NCBI GenBank assembly: GCA_023145475.1
Contig: JAGLDR010000076.1
Location: 5,488 to 69,487, forward strand
Source: a bacterium
GTDB lineage: Bacteria > UBP6 > UBA1177 > JAGLDR01
Reading direction: 5' to 3'
Length of the DNA: 64,000 nucleotides
Under the pieces are notes generated by a model, which was not told where the DNA came from, ran no database searches, and saw nothing but the letters and a program-made list of their open reading frames with translations. Of the stretch, positions 18,340 through 22,692 are shown one piece after another (position 1 is the stretch's first letter; each line of letters begins with the position of its first letter). The position numbers were made by a program, and so were the translations under genes.

Positions 18340-21300
18340 GTGATGAAAAATGTTCTAAGGTCTTTAAAATTAAAAGGAGTAGTTGCTGTAATATTCCTTA
18401 TTTTTGCAACACTTCATGCAACGGAAAGCTCAAACTATTATTCTGTGAGAGCTTACAACGCTTCGCCTGAAGCTGTTCAATTTCTTCAATCAAATATGGA
18501 AAAGATCTATTACGACCGTTATGGAATGCCGACTTATATAGTTAAGCTGGAAAATTTAAGTGTCCTGTCTCAGTATTCTGGGATAGAAGTTAACTTCGGT
18601 GTAACATCTTCTGAATACAACAGCATTGATCTTAATGAAACTGTTCCTTCTAAGTATAGTTGGGATTTTGGTAATACTGTTGACACTTCCCGTTCGGGAT
18701 GGAAAACTAAAGATTCCACTGGAAATGATTGGCCTGAACATGACTGGCCATCATATCCTGCGATGACAGTTGAATTGTTAAACAATGTTAATGATTATGT
18801 TACACAACAGTTGCCCGTAGAAGATATTGAACGGGTAGTTAGATCCAATATCGCCTCTGCACTTTATTTCATAGAATACAATATTGCCGCAGAATCTGTA
18901 TATAACAGCCGATGGGATCGTGAGGATTTCAACCCATCACTTGTAGACATTGATGCTGATAATGATCATTGTGTCGATTATTTTCCCAATGACTGTCTGT
19001 CTGCCAAGAATAAAGATAGTGATAACGATGGTGTAGTTGACGAACTAGATAACTGCCCCAATACTAAAAATCCGGGACAGACGGATTTTGATAAAGACGG
19101 GACAGGTGATTTGTGTGATCCATGTCCGAGACGATTCGGTTCAGCGACGGGTCTAGATAGTGACGGAGATGGAATAGATGATGGCTGTGATAACTGTCCA
19201 CTTCATTACAACAAACTTGAACCGATAAATCCTTTTAGTGAAATTATTTCTGCACCCATAAGTAAGTTTTTCAAAATAACTGATGAAAATAATGAACCCT
19301 TAAATAAAGGGCTGGAGCTTTATTATGAGGGCGGGGCTTTTTATTCAGGTGGTTATATTTATTATGCTTTTAGTGATATTAAAGAAGAGGATCTTGGTTA
19401 TTTTTTTACAGAAGAAGAGATTGAGTTCTACAATTCGAATCCCAATATTTTTGGTGATAAGTTCCTTTTATCCACTCCAATTTATCCTTTCAATGGAGTT
19501 CCTGTCACTTATTCTACAGAAATTGACCTGTTTAATGGAAGATCAGCTCTCTTCTTTTCGTTTAATTATCTCTGGCAACCTGACCATGATCTTGATGGCA
19601 TAGGTGATGTCTGTGATATGCCGGGCGAAGTTGTGAGAGAGAGGATTCCAACAATAGATGATGCTGGAAAACTCGTTCTTGATTCCGATGATAAAGCTCT
19701 GTTTGTTCCTCAAATAGGAGATGGATTTGCATACAATAAGATAAAAACAGTCAAAAACCTCACAACTCGAAAGGCATATTTGCCATGGATTGGGGGATAC
19801 GACGATACGGCGGTTAAAATAGAACTTCAAATGCCGCTTTACAGCAAGGATCCTCAAAGTTGCGTGACAAGATTCTCCTATCAAATTAATGATAATCTGA
19901 CACTTGATGACAATGTATGTCAGTCGGCAGTACATTTTTGTGCAGTGGATAAACGACTAAAACATCTCTGGGGAGAAGACGGTTACTGTTCGACATCAGA
20001 TAAAACAGAGCGATACAACGACAATTCAAATCTTGCAAAACCGCTTTTTCCGTTTGGCTTTAGCCACGGAAGTGATGATTTTTCAGAATCCTCAGTTTAT
20101 AGCTGGAGAATGCGAATATCATCCGCGAAAACAGGCAATTCTCTGAAAAATATGGGTTTTGAAACTGAATACTTATCAAATCCAAACAGTGATGTATACA
20201 GATCCATCCAACAGACTTCTACAACAGGAGAGAGTGTTTATTGGAATTGGAGACGAGATTGGTGGTATTGGAATGAATGTTACAGACCTGATAAAACAGA
20301 CGATCCCAGATGTCTGGCACTAAAAACTCCTCCAGAGCTGAGGGATAGTGAAAATACCATGTATTATGCGATTTCAACAAATATTGTTCCTGTGACAAAA
20401 GCTCAAGCATCTGCAGGAGATGTTCCCTCCTATAACAACGAAGCTACATCAATCAATAACAACTACTTTTTCAACAGCAAGGAAGACCGATTTTCCGGTT
20501 CTGATTTTTGGAAAAAAGATGCGTCAAAATACGGAAGAGCACACCGCTACAGTATGAATAAGATGGAGCTTAATTATCACGGAAAAGTATACTCAACACC
20601 CGACCCTGAAATAGATCCACCGATTGACCTTTCCAAGTTCCAAATGGAACTCTGCATTGATTGTTGGTGGAGAATACCTCTTACAATATTGGATGATGAG
20701 ATGATGAAATATCAACTTGGACGCTGGTCTCTTGAAAAAAGAATTGATAATGTATTGCACTTTTTTGCTGAACCTCTTTCCATTCCTGAAAACGCCATGC
20801 TTTTTATGAGCGCACCTGATAGTGGAGAACTCTTTTCTGTTGTCCAACATTCGGGACAAAATGAAGCTACAAGCTATACTTTAGAGATGAGTCCAAAAGA
20901 TGGTGGGATTGATTGGCAGATTATGGGAGCACTTGCATCATTTCCTGAATCTCTTAAAATCACTGCTGTTACTCCTCATCGCGGGCGTATTTATATCCTT
21001 GGACACACTCCTGATGCCTCAGAAGAAACTCTTTTTGCCATTACTCCTGAAACAATTCCCCCTGAAGGCATCACTCTTCCCAACTCTCAAGACAGACCTC
21101 AATTTGTTGTTAGCAATGTGAGTGTAACAGGAATAAGTGAGGACTCATTCGACGAAATACAAATAATATCTTCAGGAGAGAAGTTGTTCTTGGTTGGCTC
21201 TGATGCAACAGGAGGTGAAACAAAAACTTTTAAATTAAACACCGAAACGACACTGTTTGAAGAGGTAGCAGGTCAATCTCCTGCCTATCGTAAAATATAT

Positions 21301-22692
21301 AATCTCAAGAAAAGTTCTGGATATATTTTTCTTATTGGAGGGATGAATACTAACAACGATGCACTAAACGACATGTGGCGATTCAACACTGAAACAGAAA
21401 TATGGGAGCAACTGCTTCTTACACTTCAGGGGGATTTCAGAAAGGTAATTATTCAAGAGGTTGAAGGGAAATTGATTGCCGCAAACCCCATTATGGATGG
21501 CAACACAACACATCCTGCATTTACATTTGACCCAACGATTCAGAATATCAACAATATTGTTATTGAGTATGTTGAAATTCCTGTCACAGAAACAAAGTAT
21601 ATGTCGGATGAAAACTACTGTTTCTTGCAGAGAGATAGCTCTCTTTTTGGTGGTTTACTGTTTGGAAACAGCTGTATTCCATTCACTACAAGAAATCACG
21701 CATTTTATCAGATGAATGGTCTGGTCAACGATGTTGCAGGATATAACAACTATCTCTATACCTCACTTGACAACGCTGTAACCGTTCTTGATATTTCAAA
21801 CCCATCAAACATAGCAGAAGTATTGTCAATTCCGACTGATTTTGTGGTGCATGATATTGATATCAAAAACGATACCGCTTTTGTTACCGTAAATAACGGT
21901 ATTGCTTCGTATGATATTTCCGATGTGAACAACATTGTTTTGCAAGACTTCCTTATCACCTATAATACCGCAAACTTTGTCTATAGTTCAACCGGTCCAG
22001 TCACCGACAGCTACGGGAACCCCGTTCTTTCATCTGGAGAGCTTGGAGACACTACCGAATTAGTAATTGAAGGTAATTTGCTCTACGCAGCAGATGGACA
22101 CGGCATCACCGTGGTTAATATCTCAGATCCATCAAACTTGACGGTTGTCAACAATGTTTATACATCGGGAAACACCGAAACACTCGCCCTCACTGATGAT
22201 AAAATCTATGCGTATGATCGCTACAGTCTCAAGATTTATGATAAAGCAACACTCAATCAAGTCTACGCAGACTATCTTGATGAAGATGACTTTGGCTTTA
22301 CCGAAGATGAGCCGTGTGAAAACGCTCACTTCACTTCATACAACGGTGTTGTATACGCAGACTGTTTCCTCTCTTCATCAGTCTACACTATCGAACAAAA
22401 CTCTTATCTGTACGAGTTCCATCCGATGAGTGGTGACAGCGTTGAACTTGGTGACACATACATATCCGGTCAGTATGGCTATTTTGCCGATGGAACAGGA
22501 GTCAGAGTCAGTTATTTTGATCCGACGGCGCCTGTTTGTGGTGATGGCGTTGTTGAAGGCGATGAAGTGTGCGACAATAACATCGTTGCCTGTACAACAC
22601 TCAGCGGTGACTACATCGGCGGTGATGCCCCTTGTAATTCGACCTGCAACGGATACAATGAAAGTGGCTGTGAAGATGATGATGGATGGTAG
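18340..22692 (+). CDS. giant secreted mosaic protein: TSP type-3 Ca-binding repeats + LVIVD beta-propeller repeats + C-terminal Myxococcus-type Cys-rich repeat
   Basis: 1450 aa with a signal peptide. TSP3 repeats at about nt 19000-19200 (DSDNDGVVDELDNCPNTKNPGQTDFDKDGTGDLCDPCP). LVIVD-like repeats at about nt 21730-22250 (VTVLDISNPSNIAEV; GITVVNISDPSNLTVV). The C-terminal CGDGVVEGDEVCDNN...C resembles the myxobacterial cysteine-rich repeat. Confidence 0.7.
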   Translation: MMKNVLRSLKLKGVVAVIFLIFATLHATESSNYYSVRAYNASPEAVQFLQSNMEKIYYDRYGMPTYIVKLENLSVLSQYSGIEVNFGVTSSEYNSIDLNETVPSKYSWDFGNTVDTSRSGWKTKDSTGNDWPEHDWPSYPAMTVELLNNVNDYVTQQLPVEDIERVVRSNIASALYFIEYNIAAESVYNSRWDREDFNPSLVDIDADNDHCVDYFPNDCLSAKNKDSDNDGVVDELDNCPNTKNPGQTDFDKDGTGDLCDPCPRRFGSATGLDSDGDGIDDGCDNCPLHYNKLEPINPFSEIISAPISKFFKITDENNEPLNKGLELYYEGGAFYSGGYIYYAFSDIKEEDLGYFFTEEEIEFYNSNPNIFGDKFLLSTPIYPFNGVPVTYSTEIDLFNGRSALFFSFNYLWQPDHDLDGIGDVCDMPGEVVRERIPTIDDAGKLVLDSDDKALFVPQIGDGFAYNKIKTVKNLTTRKAYLPWIGGYDDTAVKIELQMPLYSKDPQSCVTRFSYQINDNLTLDDNVCQSAVHFCAVDKRLKHLWGEDGYCSTSDKTERYNDNSNLAKPLFPFGFSHGSDDFSESSVYSWRMRISSAKTGNSLKNMGFETEYLSNPNSDVYRSIQQTSTTGESVYWNWRRDWWYWNECYRPDKTDDPRCLALKTPPELRDSENTMYYAISTNIVPVTKAQASAGDVPSYNNEATSINNNYFFNSKEDRFSGSDFWKKDASKYGRAHRYSMNKMELNYHGKVYSTPDPEIDPPIDLSKFQMELCIDCWWRIPLTILDDEMMKYQLGRWSLEKRIDNVLHFFAEPLSIPENAMLFMSAPDSGELFSVVQHSGQNEATSYTLEMSPKDGGIDWQIMGALASFPESLKITAVTPHRGRIYILGHTPDASEETLFAITPETIPPEGITLPNSQDRPQFVVSNVSVTGISEDSFDEIQIISSGEKLFLVGSDATGGETKTFKLNTETTLFEEVAGQSPAYRKIYNLKKSSGYIFLIGGMNTNNDALNDMWRFNTETEIWEQLLLTLQGDFRKVIIQEVEGKLIAANPIMDGNTTHPAFTFDPTIQNINNIVIEYVEIPVTETKYMSDENYCFLQRDSSLFGGLLFGNSCIPFTTRNHAFYQMNGLVNDVAGYNNYLYTSLDNAVTVLDISNPSNIAEVLSIPTDFVVHDIDIKNDTAFVTVNNGIASYDISDVNNIVLQDFLITYNTANFVYSSTGPVTDSYGNPVLSSGELGDTTELVIEGNLLYAADGHGITVVNISDPSNLTVVNNVYTSGNTETLALTDDKIYAYDRYSLKIYDKATLNQVYADYLDEDDFGFTEDEPCENAHFTSYNGVVYADCFLSSSVYTIEQNSYLYEFHPMSGDSVELGDTYISGQYGYFADGTGVRVSYFDPTAPVCGDGVVEGDEVCDNNIVACTTLSGDYIGGDAPCNSTCNGYNESGCEDDDGW

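What the first reader, a model, noticed from the sequence alone, without database searches (positions are those of the whole stretch)
18340..22692. 1450-aa protein combining TSP3 calcium-binding repeats, LVIVD repeats and a Myxococcus-type Cys-rich C-terminal repeat; lineage hint
The TIGR02232-type motif CGDGVVEGDEVCDNN...C at the extreme C-terminus (nt ~22525-22692) is largely restricted to Myxococcota-like predatory or social delta-proteobacteria. TSP3 (DxDxDGxxDxxDNCPxxxNPxQxDxDxDGxGDxCD, nt ~19000-19200) is an animal-ECM-type Ca-binding module.

The LVIVD repeats (nt ~21730-22250) have no established function. The region between TSP3 and LVIVD (about 800 aa) matches nothing I recognise. 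That unassigned core is the most likely place for novel function.
Basis: partly seen in the sequence, partly recalled or inferred. Interest (0 to 1): 0.55.

Follow-up and report, generated by a model that had tools for sequence, protein, structure and literature searches.

The report
Headless member of modular surface-protease family
The 1450-residue gene is real and belongs to a rare, undescribed family of large secreted calcium-binding proteins from uncultured gut and digester bacteria that normally carry an interchangeable protease domain at the front and always sit beside a partner lipoprotein; this copy has lost its protease domain, and the supposed Myxococcus-type motif is not supported.

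Summary
The ORF 18340..22692 (+) is real (1450 aa). TSP3 (aa 219-285) and LVIVD both pass Pfam's thresholds. The TIGR02232 "Myxococcus" motif does not: 6.7 bits against a cut-off of 20.8, and 0 of 30 relatives hit it.

About 320 aa of the "unassigned 800 aa" is a Kelch β-propeller. It forms a tandem-propeller unit with the LVIVD domain.

What stays unassigned is a ~500-aa core (aa ~291-792). It has invariant motifs (WQPDHDLDG, FGFSHGSDD, WNWRRDWW) and no Pfam, NCBIfam or PDB match. Only 80 representative clusters among 1.84 billion proteins carry it.

Relatives share a fixed order: signal peptide, variable N-terminal hydrolase head (M14, C1, M12, trypsin or C25), TSP3, core, Kelch, second propeller, Cys-rich tail ending DGW.

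In this copy the M14 catalytic domain is precisely deleted: 300 aa of the closest relative are replaced by 9.

A ~500-aa lipoprotein with no known family lies next to the big gene in nearly all of the 34 related loci. Here it occurs twice (17314..18240 and 22769..24400).

Modules are mosaic, which points to cassette exchange.

The host is an unclassified lineage with ~40% GC. Its nearest named IF-2 relatives are Thermodesulfobacteriota, not Myxococcota.

Function is inferred: a lipoprotein-associated surface scaffold, non-proteolytic in this copy.

The parts
18340..22692 (+). Whole gene, 1450 aa including the GTG codon. NCBI's call starts at ATG 18343 (1449 aa).
   Evidence: ORF. P0001 is 100% identical and named 'thrombospondin type 3 repeat-containing protein [bacterium]'; the same protein is on a second assembly of the sample.
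18340..18420 (+). Sec-type signal peptide, aa 1-27: MMKNVLRSLKLKGVVAVIFLIFATLHA|TE.
   Evidence: Read from the sequence: basic n-region, hydrophobic core, small residues before the putative cut. No predictor was run. Relatives have similar N-termini.
18421..18705 (+). N-terminal part of the former M14 head, aa 28-122. It is possibly pro-domain-like.
   Evidence: aa 2-122 are 69% identical to P0002 aa 1-119, which lie upstream of P0002's Peptidase_M14 hit at aa 158-408.
18706..18732 (+). Deletion junction, aa 123-131 (TKDSTGNDW). These 9 aa replace about 300 aa (P0002 aa 120-419) that hold the M14 catalytic domain.
   Evidence: P0002 carries the zinc motif IHGNEY (HxxE) in the missing stretch. 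No Peptidase_M14 hit for this protein at E<=1.
18733..18984 (+). C-terminal remnant of the M14 domain plus linker, aa 132-215. It includes PSYPAMTVELL.
   Evidence: aa 132-226 are 68% identical to P0002 aa 420-513.
18994..19209 (+). Thrombospondin type-3 calcium-binding repeats, aa 219-290.
   Evidence: TSP_3 31.6 bits against a cut-off of 25, 3 stretches; the equivalent P0002 region aligns to the COMP and thrombospondin-2 structures.
19210..20715 (+). Unassigned conserved core, aa 291-792. The most conserved part is aa 406-800.
19576..19617 (+). Extra TSP3-like calcium motif QPDHDLDGIGDVCD, aa 413-426, at the start of the conserved core.
   Evidence: Invariant or nearly invariant columns in A1 and A3. 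The pattern DxDxDGxGDxCD is read from the sequence.
20056..20070 (+). Invariant GFSHG (GxSxG-like) within FGFSHGSDD, aa 573-577.
   Evidence: G573, S575, H576 and G577 are invariant in 30 members. The motif lies in a low-confidence loop of the model.
20242..20265 (+). Invariant WNWRRDWW motif, aa 635-642.
   Evidence: W635 and W637 are invariant; R638 and D640 are nearly invariant.
20716..21684 (+). First β-propeller, Kelch type, aa ~793-1115.
   Evidence: Kelch_4, Kelch_1. Kelch families in up to 19 of 30 members; all-β model whose top PDB matches are tandem-propeller proteins.
21685..22533 (+). Second β-propeller, LVIVD type, aa 1116-1398. This is the exchangeable cassette.
   Evidence: LVIVD 35.1 bits. 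(pLDDT mostly 80-94); only 30% identical to P0002 here, against 61% in the core. P0002 and P0003 are 96% identical here but 38-40% identical in TSP3, core and Kelch.
22534..22689 (+). Six-cysteine tail, aa 1399-1450: CGDGVVEGDEVCDNN..C..CNSTC..C-EDDDGW. It ends with the family-wide acidic DGW terminus.
   Evidence: 60-73% identity in 20 loci. TIGR02232 and DUF4215 are below threshold.
17314..18240 (+). Short paralogue (308 aa) of the partner lipoprotein. Lipobox LLFSC, acidic linker, Cys-rich domain.
   Evidence: homologues adjacent to the big gene in most loci; 43% identical to the 543-aa partner.
22769..24400 (+). Partner lipoprotein, 543 aa, lipobox LVISC. It belongs to no known family.
   Evidence: same-strand homologues beside the big gene in loci L002-L035, often in tandem copies, all with a lipobox and a D-rich linker; no Pfam or PDB match.
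24367..25353 (+). Collapsed remnant (328-aa ORF) of a second family member. A core fragment (AAVHYCA..WGEQGYCTT) is fused to a Kelch fragment (NDIWRFD) and a propeller.
   Evidence: translation; aa 111-328 match the C-terminal part of the big genes in 10 or more loci; same ending (AVHVSK) as the tail-less members P0127 and P0141.

Best explanation
The gene encodes a Sec-exported, calcium-binding, multi-domain envelope or surface protein. It belongs to a rare mosaic paralogous family found in uncultured anaerobic bacteria from gut and digester samples.

Family members share a constant scaffold:
- TSP3 calcium-binding repeats
- a ~500-aa core with no detectable fold relative
- a Kelch β-propeller
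- a second, exchangeable β-propeller
- a six-cysteine tail ending in acidic-DGW

On this scaffold sits an interchangeable N-terminal hydrolase head. Where recognisable, the head is a peptidase of clan M14, C1, M12, S1 or C25. Each member is encoded beside a conserved ~500-aa lipoprotein.

The inferred mode of action has three steps:
1. The lipoprotein tethers or assembles the scaffold at the cell envelope through the constant part, with the conserved tail as the best candidate contact.
2. The propellers and core bind a target.
3. The head cleaves it.

In this copy the M14 catalytic domain, including the zinc ligands, has been cleanly deleted in frame. It therefore cannot be a carboxypeptidase. 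It either keeps only the binding or scaffold role or is at an early stage of decay.

Shown here: the architecture, the head deletion, the family's rarity, the partner adjacency and the mosaicism. Inferred: surface location, the partner's role as tether, and substrate binding.
For: - ORF and domains.
- Head deletion: aa 2-122 and 132-226 are 69% and 68% identical to P0002 aa 1-119 and 420-513. P0002 aa 158-408 is Peptidase_M14 (E=9e-24) with an HxxE motif.
- Variable heads in 30 members: M14 x2, C1 x2, Reprolysin x1, Trypsin x1, C25 x1, against TSP_3 in 28/30 and Kelch in 19/30. The heads are N-terminal: P0140 from aa 143, P0146 aa 90-260. NCBIfam adds hits to MpaA, Mep72, fragilysin and the MIP serine endopeptidase.
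- Rarity: an exhaustive profile search finds only 80 clusters, nearly all 1200-1900 aa with the core in the middle.
- Distribution: 34 loci in ~20 MAGs, several per genome.
- Partner: lipoprotein homologues lie next to the big gene on the same strand in L002-L035. All have a lipobox and an acidic linker. The partner is conserved whatever the head type.
- Propellers: tandem propellers are modelled at pLDDT 80-94 and match tandem-propeller structures.
- Tail: it is the most conserved segment across loci, at 60-73% identity. The terminal DGW is kept even in members that lack the cysteines.
- Mosaicism.
Against: - No experimental data exist for any member.
- Surface location and partner binding are inferred only from the signal peptide, the lipobox and gene adjacency.
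- About two thirds of the 30 scanned heads have no recognisable family, so 'protease family' is an extrapolation from 7-9 members.
- The core model is of moderate quality (pLDDT 62.7). The invariant GFSHG motif lies in a low-confidence loop, so an enzymatic role for the core is not excluded.
- The headless state is seen in one sample only. A JGI metagenome scan with the head remnant found nothing.
- A degraded second copy lies next door, which shows this locus is decaying and favours the pseudogene reading.
Confidence: 0.55

Rival explanations
1. First reader's reading. The C-terminus is a TIGR02232 Myxococcus-type cysteine-rich repeat, so the protein and the contig come from a Myxococcota- or Bdellovibrionota-like predatory bacterium.
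For: - The first 15 residues of the tail (CGDGVVEGDEVCDNN) resemble the start of the repeat. TIGR02232 and DUF4215 are the only models that touch the tail at all.
- The nearest named IF-2 relatives are former Deltaproteobacteria.
Against: - TIGR02232 scores 6.7 bits against a cut-off of 20.8; DUF4215 scores 11.2 against 27.
- 0 of 30 relatives hit TIGR02232 at E<=0.01.
- There is one copy, not tandem repeats, and the cysteine spacing is different (six Cys).
- NCBIfam now calls the model simply 'cysteine-rich acidic repeat'.
- GC is ~40%.
- No Myxococcota or Bdellovibrionota appear among the top 120 IF-2 hits.
- The hit to MtsC (38 bits against 350) comes from the TSP3 repeats only.
Confidence: 0.05
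2. The gene is a pseudogene in the making. An in-frame deletion removed the only functional (catalytic) part and the remaining ORF has no role.
For: - The catalytic domain is deleted.
- The adjacent ORF 24367-25353 is a badly collapsed family member.
- The upstream partner copy is truncated to 308 aa.
- The protein is known from one sample only.
Against: - 4350 nt remain open with no frameshift or stop.
- All invariant family positions are kept in the core, propellers and tail.
- The head remnants are the best-conserved parts relative to P0002, at 68-69%.
- A full-length partner gene follows.
Confidence: 0.2
3. The pair is a polymorphic effector with an immunity protein, used against competing bacteria or prey. 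The variable head is the toxin and the neighbouring lipoprotein protects the producer.
For: - Heads are interchangeable on a constant delivery-like body.
- Cassette exchange occurs.
- There are several paralogues per genome and tandem arrays of the neighbour gene.
- A Tn3 transposase and resolvase lie next to the P0002 module.
Against: - The variable domain is N-terminal behind a Sec signal, not a C-terminal toxin tip.
- The neighbour is one conserved family (26-53% identity) whatever the head type is: M14, unknown or absent. An immunity protein should instead co-vary with the toxin.
- No secretion-system markers of the T6SS, T7SS or CDI type were seen in the locus.
- At ~500 aa the neighbour is large for an immunity protein, and it carries a lipobox.
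Confidence: 0.1
4. The conserved core is itself the active part. It could be a new serine hydrolase or a self-processing module built around the invariant G-F-S-H-G. The heads would then be accessory.
For: - G573, S575, H576 and G577 are invariant, and D579, H532, R638 and D640 nearly so, in 30 members.
- GxSxG is the nucleophile-elbow pattern of serine hydrolases (established knowledge).
- The core is kept even in this headless copy.
Against: - No invariant His lies downstream of the Ser and Asp, as a Ser-Asp-His triad would need.
- H532 is replaced by Q, R or K in some members.
- The motif lies in a low-confidence loop.
Confidence: 0.1

Closest known systems
Thrombospondin / COMP type-3 repeat 'calcium wire' (Pfam PF02412; PDB 1YO8, 3FBY)
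   Same: DxDxDGxxDxxDNCPxxxNPxQxDxDxDGxGDxCD repeats score above the Pfam threshold. The equivalent region of P0002 aligns to the COMP and TSP-2 structures.
   Different: - Only ~3-4 repeats are present.
- There is no lectin-like C-terminal domain, EGF repeats or coiled coil.
- The protein is bacterial and Sec-exported, and the rest of the architecture is unrelated.
Multi-domain surface proteases such as the Porphyromonas gingipains (C25 catalytic domain plus adhesin domains)
   Same: An N-terminal peptidase domain is followed by large non-catalytic binding domains on a secreted protein. One family member has a Peptidase_C25 head.
   Different: - There is no T9SS C-terminal domain (no Por_Secre_tail hit).
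- The head type varies between paralogues.
- The scaffold is TSP3 + novel core + two propellers + Cys tail.
- A dedicated lipoprotein partner is present.
- This copy has no catalytic domain.
PorZ (T9SS surface protein with two β-propellers)
   Same: Tandem β-propellers on a cell-envelope protein. Weak hits in relatives: PorZ_N_b_propeller for P0035 and NCBIfam T9SS_PorZ for 2 of 30 members.
   Different: - The hits are far below threshold and reflect the propeller fold only.
- There is no T9SS CTD.
- The head, TSP3 repeats and core have no counterpart in PorZ.
Myxococcus MtsC (NF047638, a TSP3-repeat MYXO-CTERM cell-cohesion protein)
   Same: A bacterial surface protein with TSP3 repeats. It is the best NCBIfam hit.
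   Different: - The score is 38 bits against a cut-off of 350, over the TSP3 repeats only.
- There is no MYXO-CTERM sorting signal; the protein ends ...CEDDDGW.
TIGR02232 / DUF4215 cysteine-rich acidic repeat
   Same: The start of the tail, CGxGxxExxExCDxN, resembles the first half of the repeat.
   Different: - Below threshold in this protein and in all 30 relatives.
- A single copy with six cysteines and a conserved terminal DGW.
M14 zinc carboxypeptidases with a pro-domain (Pfam PF00246)
   Same: The closest relative P0002 has an intact M14 domain with HxxE. This protein keeps the flanking segments at 68-69% identity.
   Different: The ~300-aa catalytic domain is missing here, and there is no PF00246 hit.

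Membership tests
TSP_3 (PF02412) | HMM score at or above the gathering threshold (25 bits), with the DxDxDG...C calcium-binding motif | tested here: met
   31.6 bits, E=1.3e-7, 3 stretches at aa 219-285. The motifs are visible in the sequence.
LVIVD repeat (PF08309) | HMM score at or above the gathering threshold (20.2 bits); repeats form a β-propeller | tested here: met
   35.1 bits, 2 stretches; the region is modelled as a β-propeller at high pLDDT.
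Kelch β-propeller (PF13418, PF01344) | HMM score at or above the gathering threshold; propeller fold | tested here: met
   Kelch_4 29.7 against 21.6 and Kelch_1 24.2 against 20.1, though for one blade only; aa ~793-1115 are all-β and match propeller structures.
TIGR02232 (myxo_disulf_rpt, cysteine-rich acidic repeat) | HMM score at or above the curated cut-off (20.8 bits) | tested here: not met
   6.7 bits, E=6.3, profile positions 2-17 of 38; 0 of 30 relatives at E<=0.01.
TIGR02232 (myxo_disulf_rpt, cysteine-rich acidic repeat) | Occurs as repeated units | tested here: not met
   There is a single C-terminal copy with six Cys at spacing C-x10-C-x6-C-x13-C-x3-C-x7-C.
DUF4215 (PF13948) | HMM score at or above the gathering threshold (27 bits) | tested here: not met
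   11.2 bits, E=0.47 on the isolated tail. No member hits at E<=1e-4.
Peptidase_M14 (PF00246) | Catalytic domain with the zinc ligands HxxE...H | tested here: not met
   no hit at E<=1; the segment that holds HxxE in P0002 (aa 120-419) is replaced by 9 residues.
MtsC (NF047638) / MYXO-CTERM proteins | Equivalog score at or above 350 bits and a C-terminal MYXO-CTERM sorting signal | tested here: not met
   38 bits, over the TSP3 region only. The C-terminus is ...CEDDDGW with no hydrophobic anchor.
T9SS cargo | C-terminal Por_Secre_tail (PF18962) domain | tested here: not met
   No hit (E<=1) for this protein or for the 30 members. The tail is a ~52-aa Cys-rich segment.
New family defined here (variable head + TSP3 + core + two propellers + DGW tail) | Core motifs WQPDHDLDG, HxC, WGxxGxC, FG[FY]SHG[ST]D and WNWRRDW[WY], in this order, downstream of the TSP3 repeats | tested here: met
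   all invariant columns are present in this protein; the profile recovers 80 clusters.
New family defined here (variable head + TSP3 + core + two propellers + DGW tail) | Adjacent same-strand partner lipoprotein | tested here: met
   17314..18240 and 22769..24400 are homologous to the neighbours in L002-L035.
New family defined here (variable head + TSP3 + core + two propellers + DGW tail) | Recognisable N-terminal hydrolase head | tested here: not met
   only remnants of an M14 head remain.
Myxococcota / Bdellovibrionota origin | Housekeeping genes group with those phyla | tested here: inconclusive
   the best IF-2 hits are unclassified MAGs. The nearest named hits are Desulfuromonadia and Thermodesulfobacteriota at 42-55% identity, and none are Myxococcota or Bdellovibrionota in the top 120. 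No tree could be built.

The most novel reading that the evidence does not exclude
The family plus its partner is an undescribed two-component surface apparatus of an uncultured, possibly phylum-level, anaerobic lineage.

- A lipoprotein dock holds a modular scaffold.
- The N-terminal hydrolase 'warhead' and the C-terminal propeller 'targeting' cassette are both swapped by recombination.
- The ~500-aa core is a new fold carrying an invariant G-x-S-H-G centre with its own catalytic or self-processing activity.
- The terminal acidic-DGW is a new sorting or docking signal.
Probability: 0.2. Interest if true: 0.65.

Novelty: new variant of a known kind. Interest (0 to 1): 0.4.

Why it matters
If the model holds, it would give function and context to a set of very large 'hypothetical' or 'TSP3 repeat-containing' proteins. 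These proteins are multi-copy in poorly known rumen and digester bacteria.

It would define two uncharacterised protein families, the core domain and the partner lipoprotein.

It would also be a clear case of domain-cassette exchange at both ends of a surface protein.

In practical terms, the check corrects a tempting but unsupported taxonomic inference from a short cysteine motif. It also shows that this particular copy is catalytically 'decapitated'.

It does not open a long-standing question.

Tried and rejected
- TIGR02232 and DUF4215 membership was tested on the isolated tail and on 30 relatives. Both were rejected.
- A fold for the core was sought four ways and none gave an assignment:
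  - AF2 with a 31-sequence alignment: pLDDT 62.7.
  - Foldseek against PDB: nothing at E<=0.001.
  - Profile against PDB sequences: nothing.
- The AFDB library was not available.
- The partner was compared with Pfam (0 of 21 members), with PDB and with the big protein by hhalign (probability 1.7%). No relationship was found.
- Lineage placement:
  - Only an IF-2 best-hit analysis was possible.
  - A look-up of RGIG MAG taxonomy in Xie et al. 2021 (PMC8199421) supplements and a text search for the MAG names found nothing.
  - There are no tRNA or Rfam hits in the window.
- The promoter and terminator scan around the locus did not exceed chance.
- A JGI metagenome scan with the head remnant found no relatives.
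- Literature searches for the domain combination and for TIGR02232 returned nothing.
- The 619-aa upstream ORF (15440-17299) was considered as part of the module. It was rejected because it has no homologue in any related locus.

Full report
**1. The observation**

The ORF 18340..22692 on the + strand is open for 1450 codons. The identical protein, starting one codon later, is in NCBI as 'thrombospondin type 3 repeat-containing protein [bacterium]'. It is also on a second assembly of the same sample.

Pfam confirms TSP_3: 31.6 bits against a cut-off of 25, at aa 219-285 = nt 18994-19194. It also confirms LVIVD: 35.1 bits against 20.2, best stretch aa 1236-1275.

The third claim fails. On the isolated 57-aa tail, TIGR02232 scores 6.7 bits (E=6.3) against a cut-off of 20.8. 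Only profile positions 2-17 of 38 are matched. DUF4215 scores 11.2 bits against 27. None of 30 relatives hits TIGR02232 at E<=0.01. The resemblance is confined to CGxGxxExxExCDxN.

**2. Anatomy**

An alignment with the four full-length relatives (A1) and then with 29 relatives (A3) gives a fixed domain order:

- A signal peptide, aa 1-27 (read from the sequence).
- A head region, aa 28-215.
- TSP3 repeats, aa 219-290.
- A conserved core, aa ~291-792.
- A Kelch propeller, aa ~793-1115.
- An LVIVD-type propeller, aa 1116-1398.
- A six-cysteine tail, aa 1399-1450, ending EDDDGW.

The core has these invariant motifs: a further TSP3-like motif QPDHDLDGIGDVCD (413-426), AVHFCA (H532, C534), WGEDGYC (544-550), FGFSHGSDD (572-580), WNWRRDWW (635-642), and R733 with R736.

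Kelch_4 and Kelch_1 pass their thresholds at aa 993-1025.

An AF2 model of aa 690-1450 (pLDDT 73, mostly 80-94 in the β regions) is all-β from aa ~793 to ~1392. Its best PDB matches are tandem-propeller proteins such as IFT-A subunits and DDB1, at E~1e-12.

**3. The head is a decapitated M14 carboxypeptidase**

The closest relative is P0002 (49% identity, 1711 aa). It has an intact Peptidase_M14 domain at aa 158-408 (E=9e-24), with the zinc motif IHGNEY.

This protein's aa 2-122 match P0002 aa 1-119 at 69% identity. Its aa 132-226 match P0002 aa 420-513 at 68%. The intervening 300 aa of P0002 are replaced here by nine residues, TKDSTGNDW. No M14 hit remains.

The deletion is in frame. The flanks are the best-conserved parts of the protein relative to P0002.

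**4. The family**

A word-indexed search with the whole protein is swamped by TSP3 hits and yields only four true full-length relatives. A profile of the core alone was run exhaustively against 1.84 billion representative proteins. It finds 80 clusters, 66 of them at E<=1e-10. Nearly all are 1200-1900 aa with the core in the middle.

Pfam on 30 members shows the following:

| Region | Pfam family | Members of 30 |
|---|---|---|
| Constant | TSP_3 | 28 |
| Constant | Kelch families | up to 19 |
| Head | Peptidase_M14 | 2 |
| Head | Peptidase_C1 | 2 |
| Head | Reprolysin (M12) | 1 |
| Head | Trypsin | 1 |
| Head | Peptidase_C25 | 1 |

NCBIfam adds hits to MpaA, Mep72, fragilysin and an Ig-specific serine endopeptidase. 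Where located, these domains are N-terminal: P0140 M14 from aa 143, and P0146 Reprolysin at aa 90-260. Roughly two thirds of the heads have no recognisable family.

**5. The core has no known relative**

No Pfam or NCBIfam model matches it. A profile search of PDB sequences finds nothing.

The invariant GFSHG lies in a low-confidence loop. An enzymatic or self-processing role can therefore be neither supported nor excluded.

**6. A conserved partner gene**

tblastn of the window's neighbours against 35 related loci shows a clear association. The 543-aa product of 22769..24400 and its 308-aa paralogue 17314..18240 have homologues directly beside the big gene, on the same strand, in almost every locus (L002-L035). 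Several loci hold two to four tandem copies.

All of these neighbours begin with a lipoprotein signal (…FSC, …ISC or …WSC) followed by an aspartate-rich linker. Sixteen positions, mostly cysteines, are invariant.

The partner has no Pfam match in any of 21 members and no PDB relative. It is unrelated to the big protein. It is conserved at 26-53% identity whatever the head is. That argues for interaction with the constant part and against a head-specific inhibitor or immunity role.

The 619-aa ORF upstream (15440..17299) has no homologue in any related locus and is not part of the module.

**7. Mosaicism and decay**

Region-by-region identities show cassette exchange:

| Pair | TSP3 | Core | Kelch | Second propeller | Tail |
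|---|---|---|---|---|---|
| This protein vs P0002 | 69% | 61% | 50% | 30% | 60% |
| P0002 vs P0003 | 40% | 40% | 38% | 96% | 96% |

The LVIVD-type propeller of this copy has no relative above 29% in any locus. The tail is 60-73% identical in 20 loci.

Family C-termini end in acidic-DGW even in a subgroup that lacks the cysteines (…EEDGW[LIMF]). Other subgroups end SGC or HVSK.

Immediately downstream of the partner gene, ORF 24367..25353 is a collapsed remnant of a second member. A core fragment (AAVHYCA…WGEQGYCTT) is joined directly to a Kelch fragment (NDIWRFD) and a propeller, and it ends AVHVSK.

**8. Lineage**

The window is ~40% GC. For IF-2 (5762..8347, − strand), the ~85 best hits (52-77% identity) all come from unclassified 'bacterium' MAGs. 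These include the genomes that carry paralogues of this family (contigs of 2,067,074, 228,411 and 2,951,302 bp).

There is then a drop in score to the nearest named hits: Pelovirga, Geothermobacter, Desulfobotulus and Thermodesulfobacteriota, at 42-55% identity. No Myxococcota or Bdellovibrionota appear in the top 120.

The genomes that hold the family come from yak rumen, goat duodenum, buffalo abomasum, digesters and similar sources. This is best-hit evidence only, and the phylum is unresolved. Attempts to find the MAGs' GTDB classification in the literature failed.

**9. Interpretation**

The best-supported reading is a Sec-exported, Ca2+-stabilised scaffold protein from a lineage-restricted mosaic family. 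Members of the family normally present an interchangeable hydrolase head and act together with a dedicated lipoprotein.

I infer, but have not shown, three things:

- The lipoprotein docks the scaffold at the envelope, with the conserved DGW tail as the best candidate contact.
- The propellers and core bind a target.
- The head cleaves that target.

This copy lacks the catalytic domain. It is either a binding-only variant or an early pseudogene. The intact 4.35-kb frame and the preserved invariant residues favour the former. The decayed neighbour favours the latter.

Three rivals are less likely for the reasons given in their entries: the effector-immunity pair, the enzymatic core, and the Myxococcus-type repeat protein.

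**10. Verdict**

TSP3, LVIVD and the novel middle region hold up. The lineage inference from TIGR02232 is not supported.

The real content is an undescribed modular family with a partner lipoprotein, of which this is a headless member. It is a new variant of a known kind (multi-domain secreted protease or adhesin) and of moderate interest.

Noticed in passing
window 24367-25353 (+): This 328-aa ORF is a collapsed remnant of a second family member. A core fragment is fused directly to a Kelch fragment and a propeller, and it ends AVHVSK like the tail-less members P0127 and P0141. Its annotated start overlaps the end of the partner gene.
   Followed up: partly
P0002 / P0003 / P0005 (alignment A1, columns 1990-2364): The C-terminal propeller and tail are 96% identical between P0002 and P0003, although their TSP3, core and Kelch regions are only 38-40% identical. 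P0005 is 75% identical to both in this propeller. This indicates recent cassette exchange or gene conversion between paralogues.
   Followed up: partly
family C-termini: The extreme C-terminus is acidic-DGW in most members. This includes a subgroup that lacks the cysteine-rich segment and ends ...EEDGW[LIMF]. It looks like a recognition or sorting motif of unknown kind.
   Followed up: no
L002 6862-10471: A Tn3-family transposase (DDE_Tnp_Tn3) and a resolvase lie directly downstream of the P0002 gene and its partner. The module may therefore be carried on or next to mobile DNA in that contig.
   Followed up: no
window 15440-17299 (+): A 619-aa ORF with a signal-like N-terminus and a Gly/aromatic-rich C-terminal half has no significant Pfam or NCBIfam hit. 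It has no homologue in any of the 35 related loci.
   Followed up: partly
window 40573-42381 (+): A 602-aa protein has a weak, far sub-threshold hit to the T9SS sortase PorU model (E=5.6e-14, 50.8 bits against a cut-off of 420). It is probably a C25-like peptidase domain.
   Followed up: no
window 25388-26611 (+) and 26620-27876 (+): A DUF6175 protein (E=8e-11) and a 418-aa protein with no family follow the locus on the same strand. Neither is conserved next to family members elsewhere.
   Followed up: partly
window 52973-57441, 60233-62329, 62477-63841: Four large ORFs (615, 840, 697 and 453 aa) have no NCBIfam hit at E<=1e-5. ORF 58660-60168 carries a choice-of-anchor L domain. The contig is rich in uncharacterised envelope-type proteins.
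   Followed up: no
window 1-64000: No tRNA genes (ARAGORN) and no Rfam family at gathering threshold were found in 64 kb.
   Followed up: yes
L015, L020, L033, L035: The partner lipoprotein gene occurs as tandem arrays of two to four copies downstream of a single big gene.
   Followed up: no
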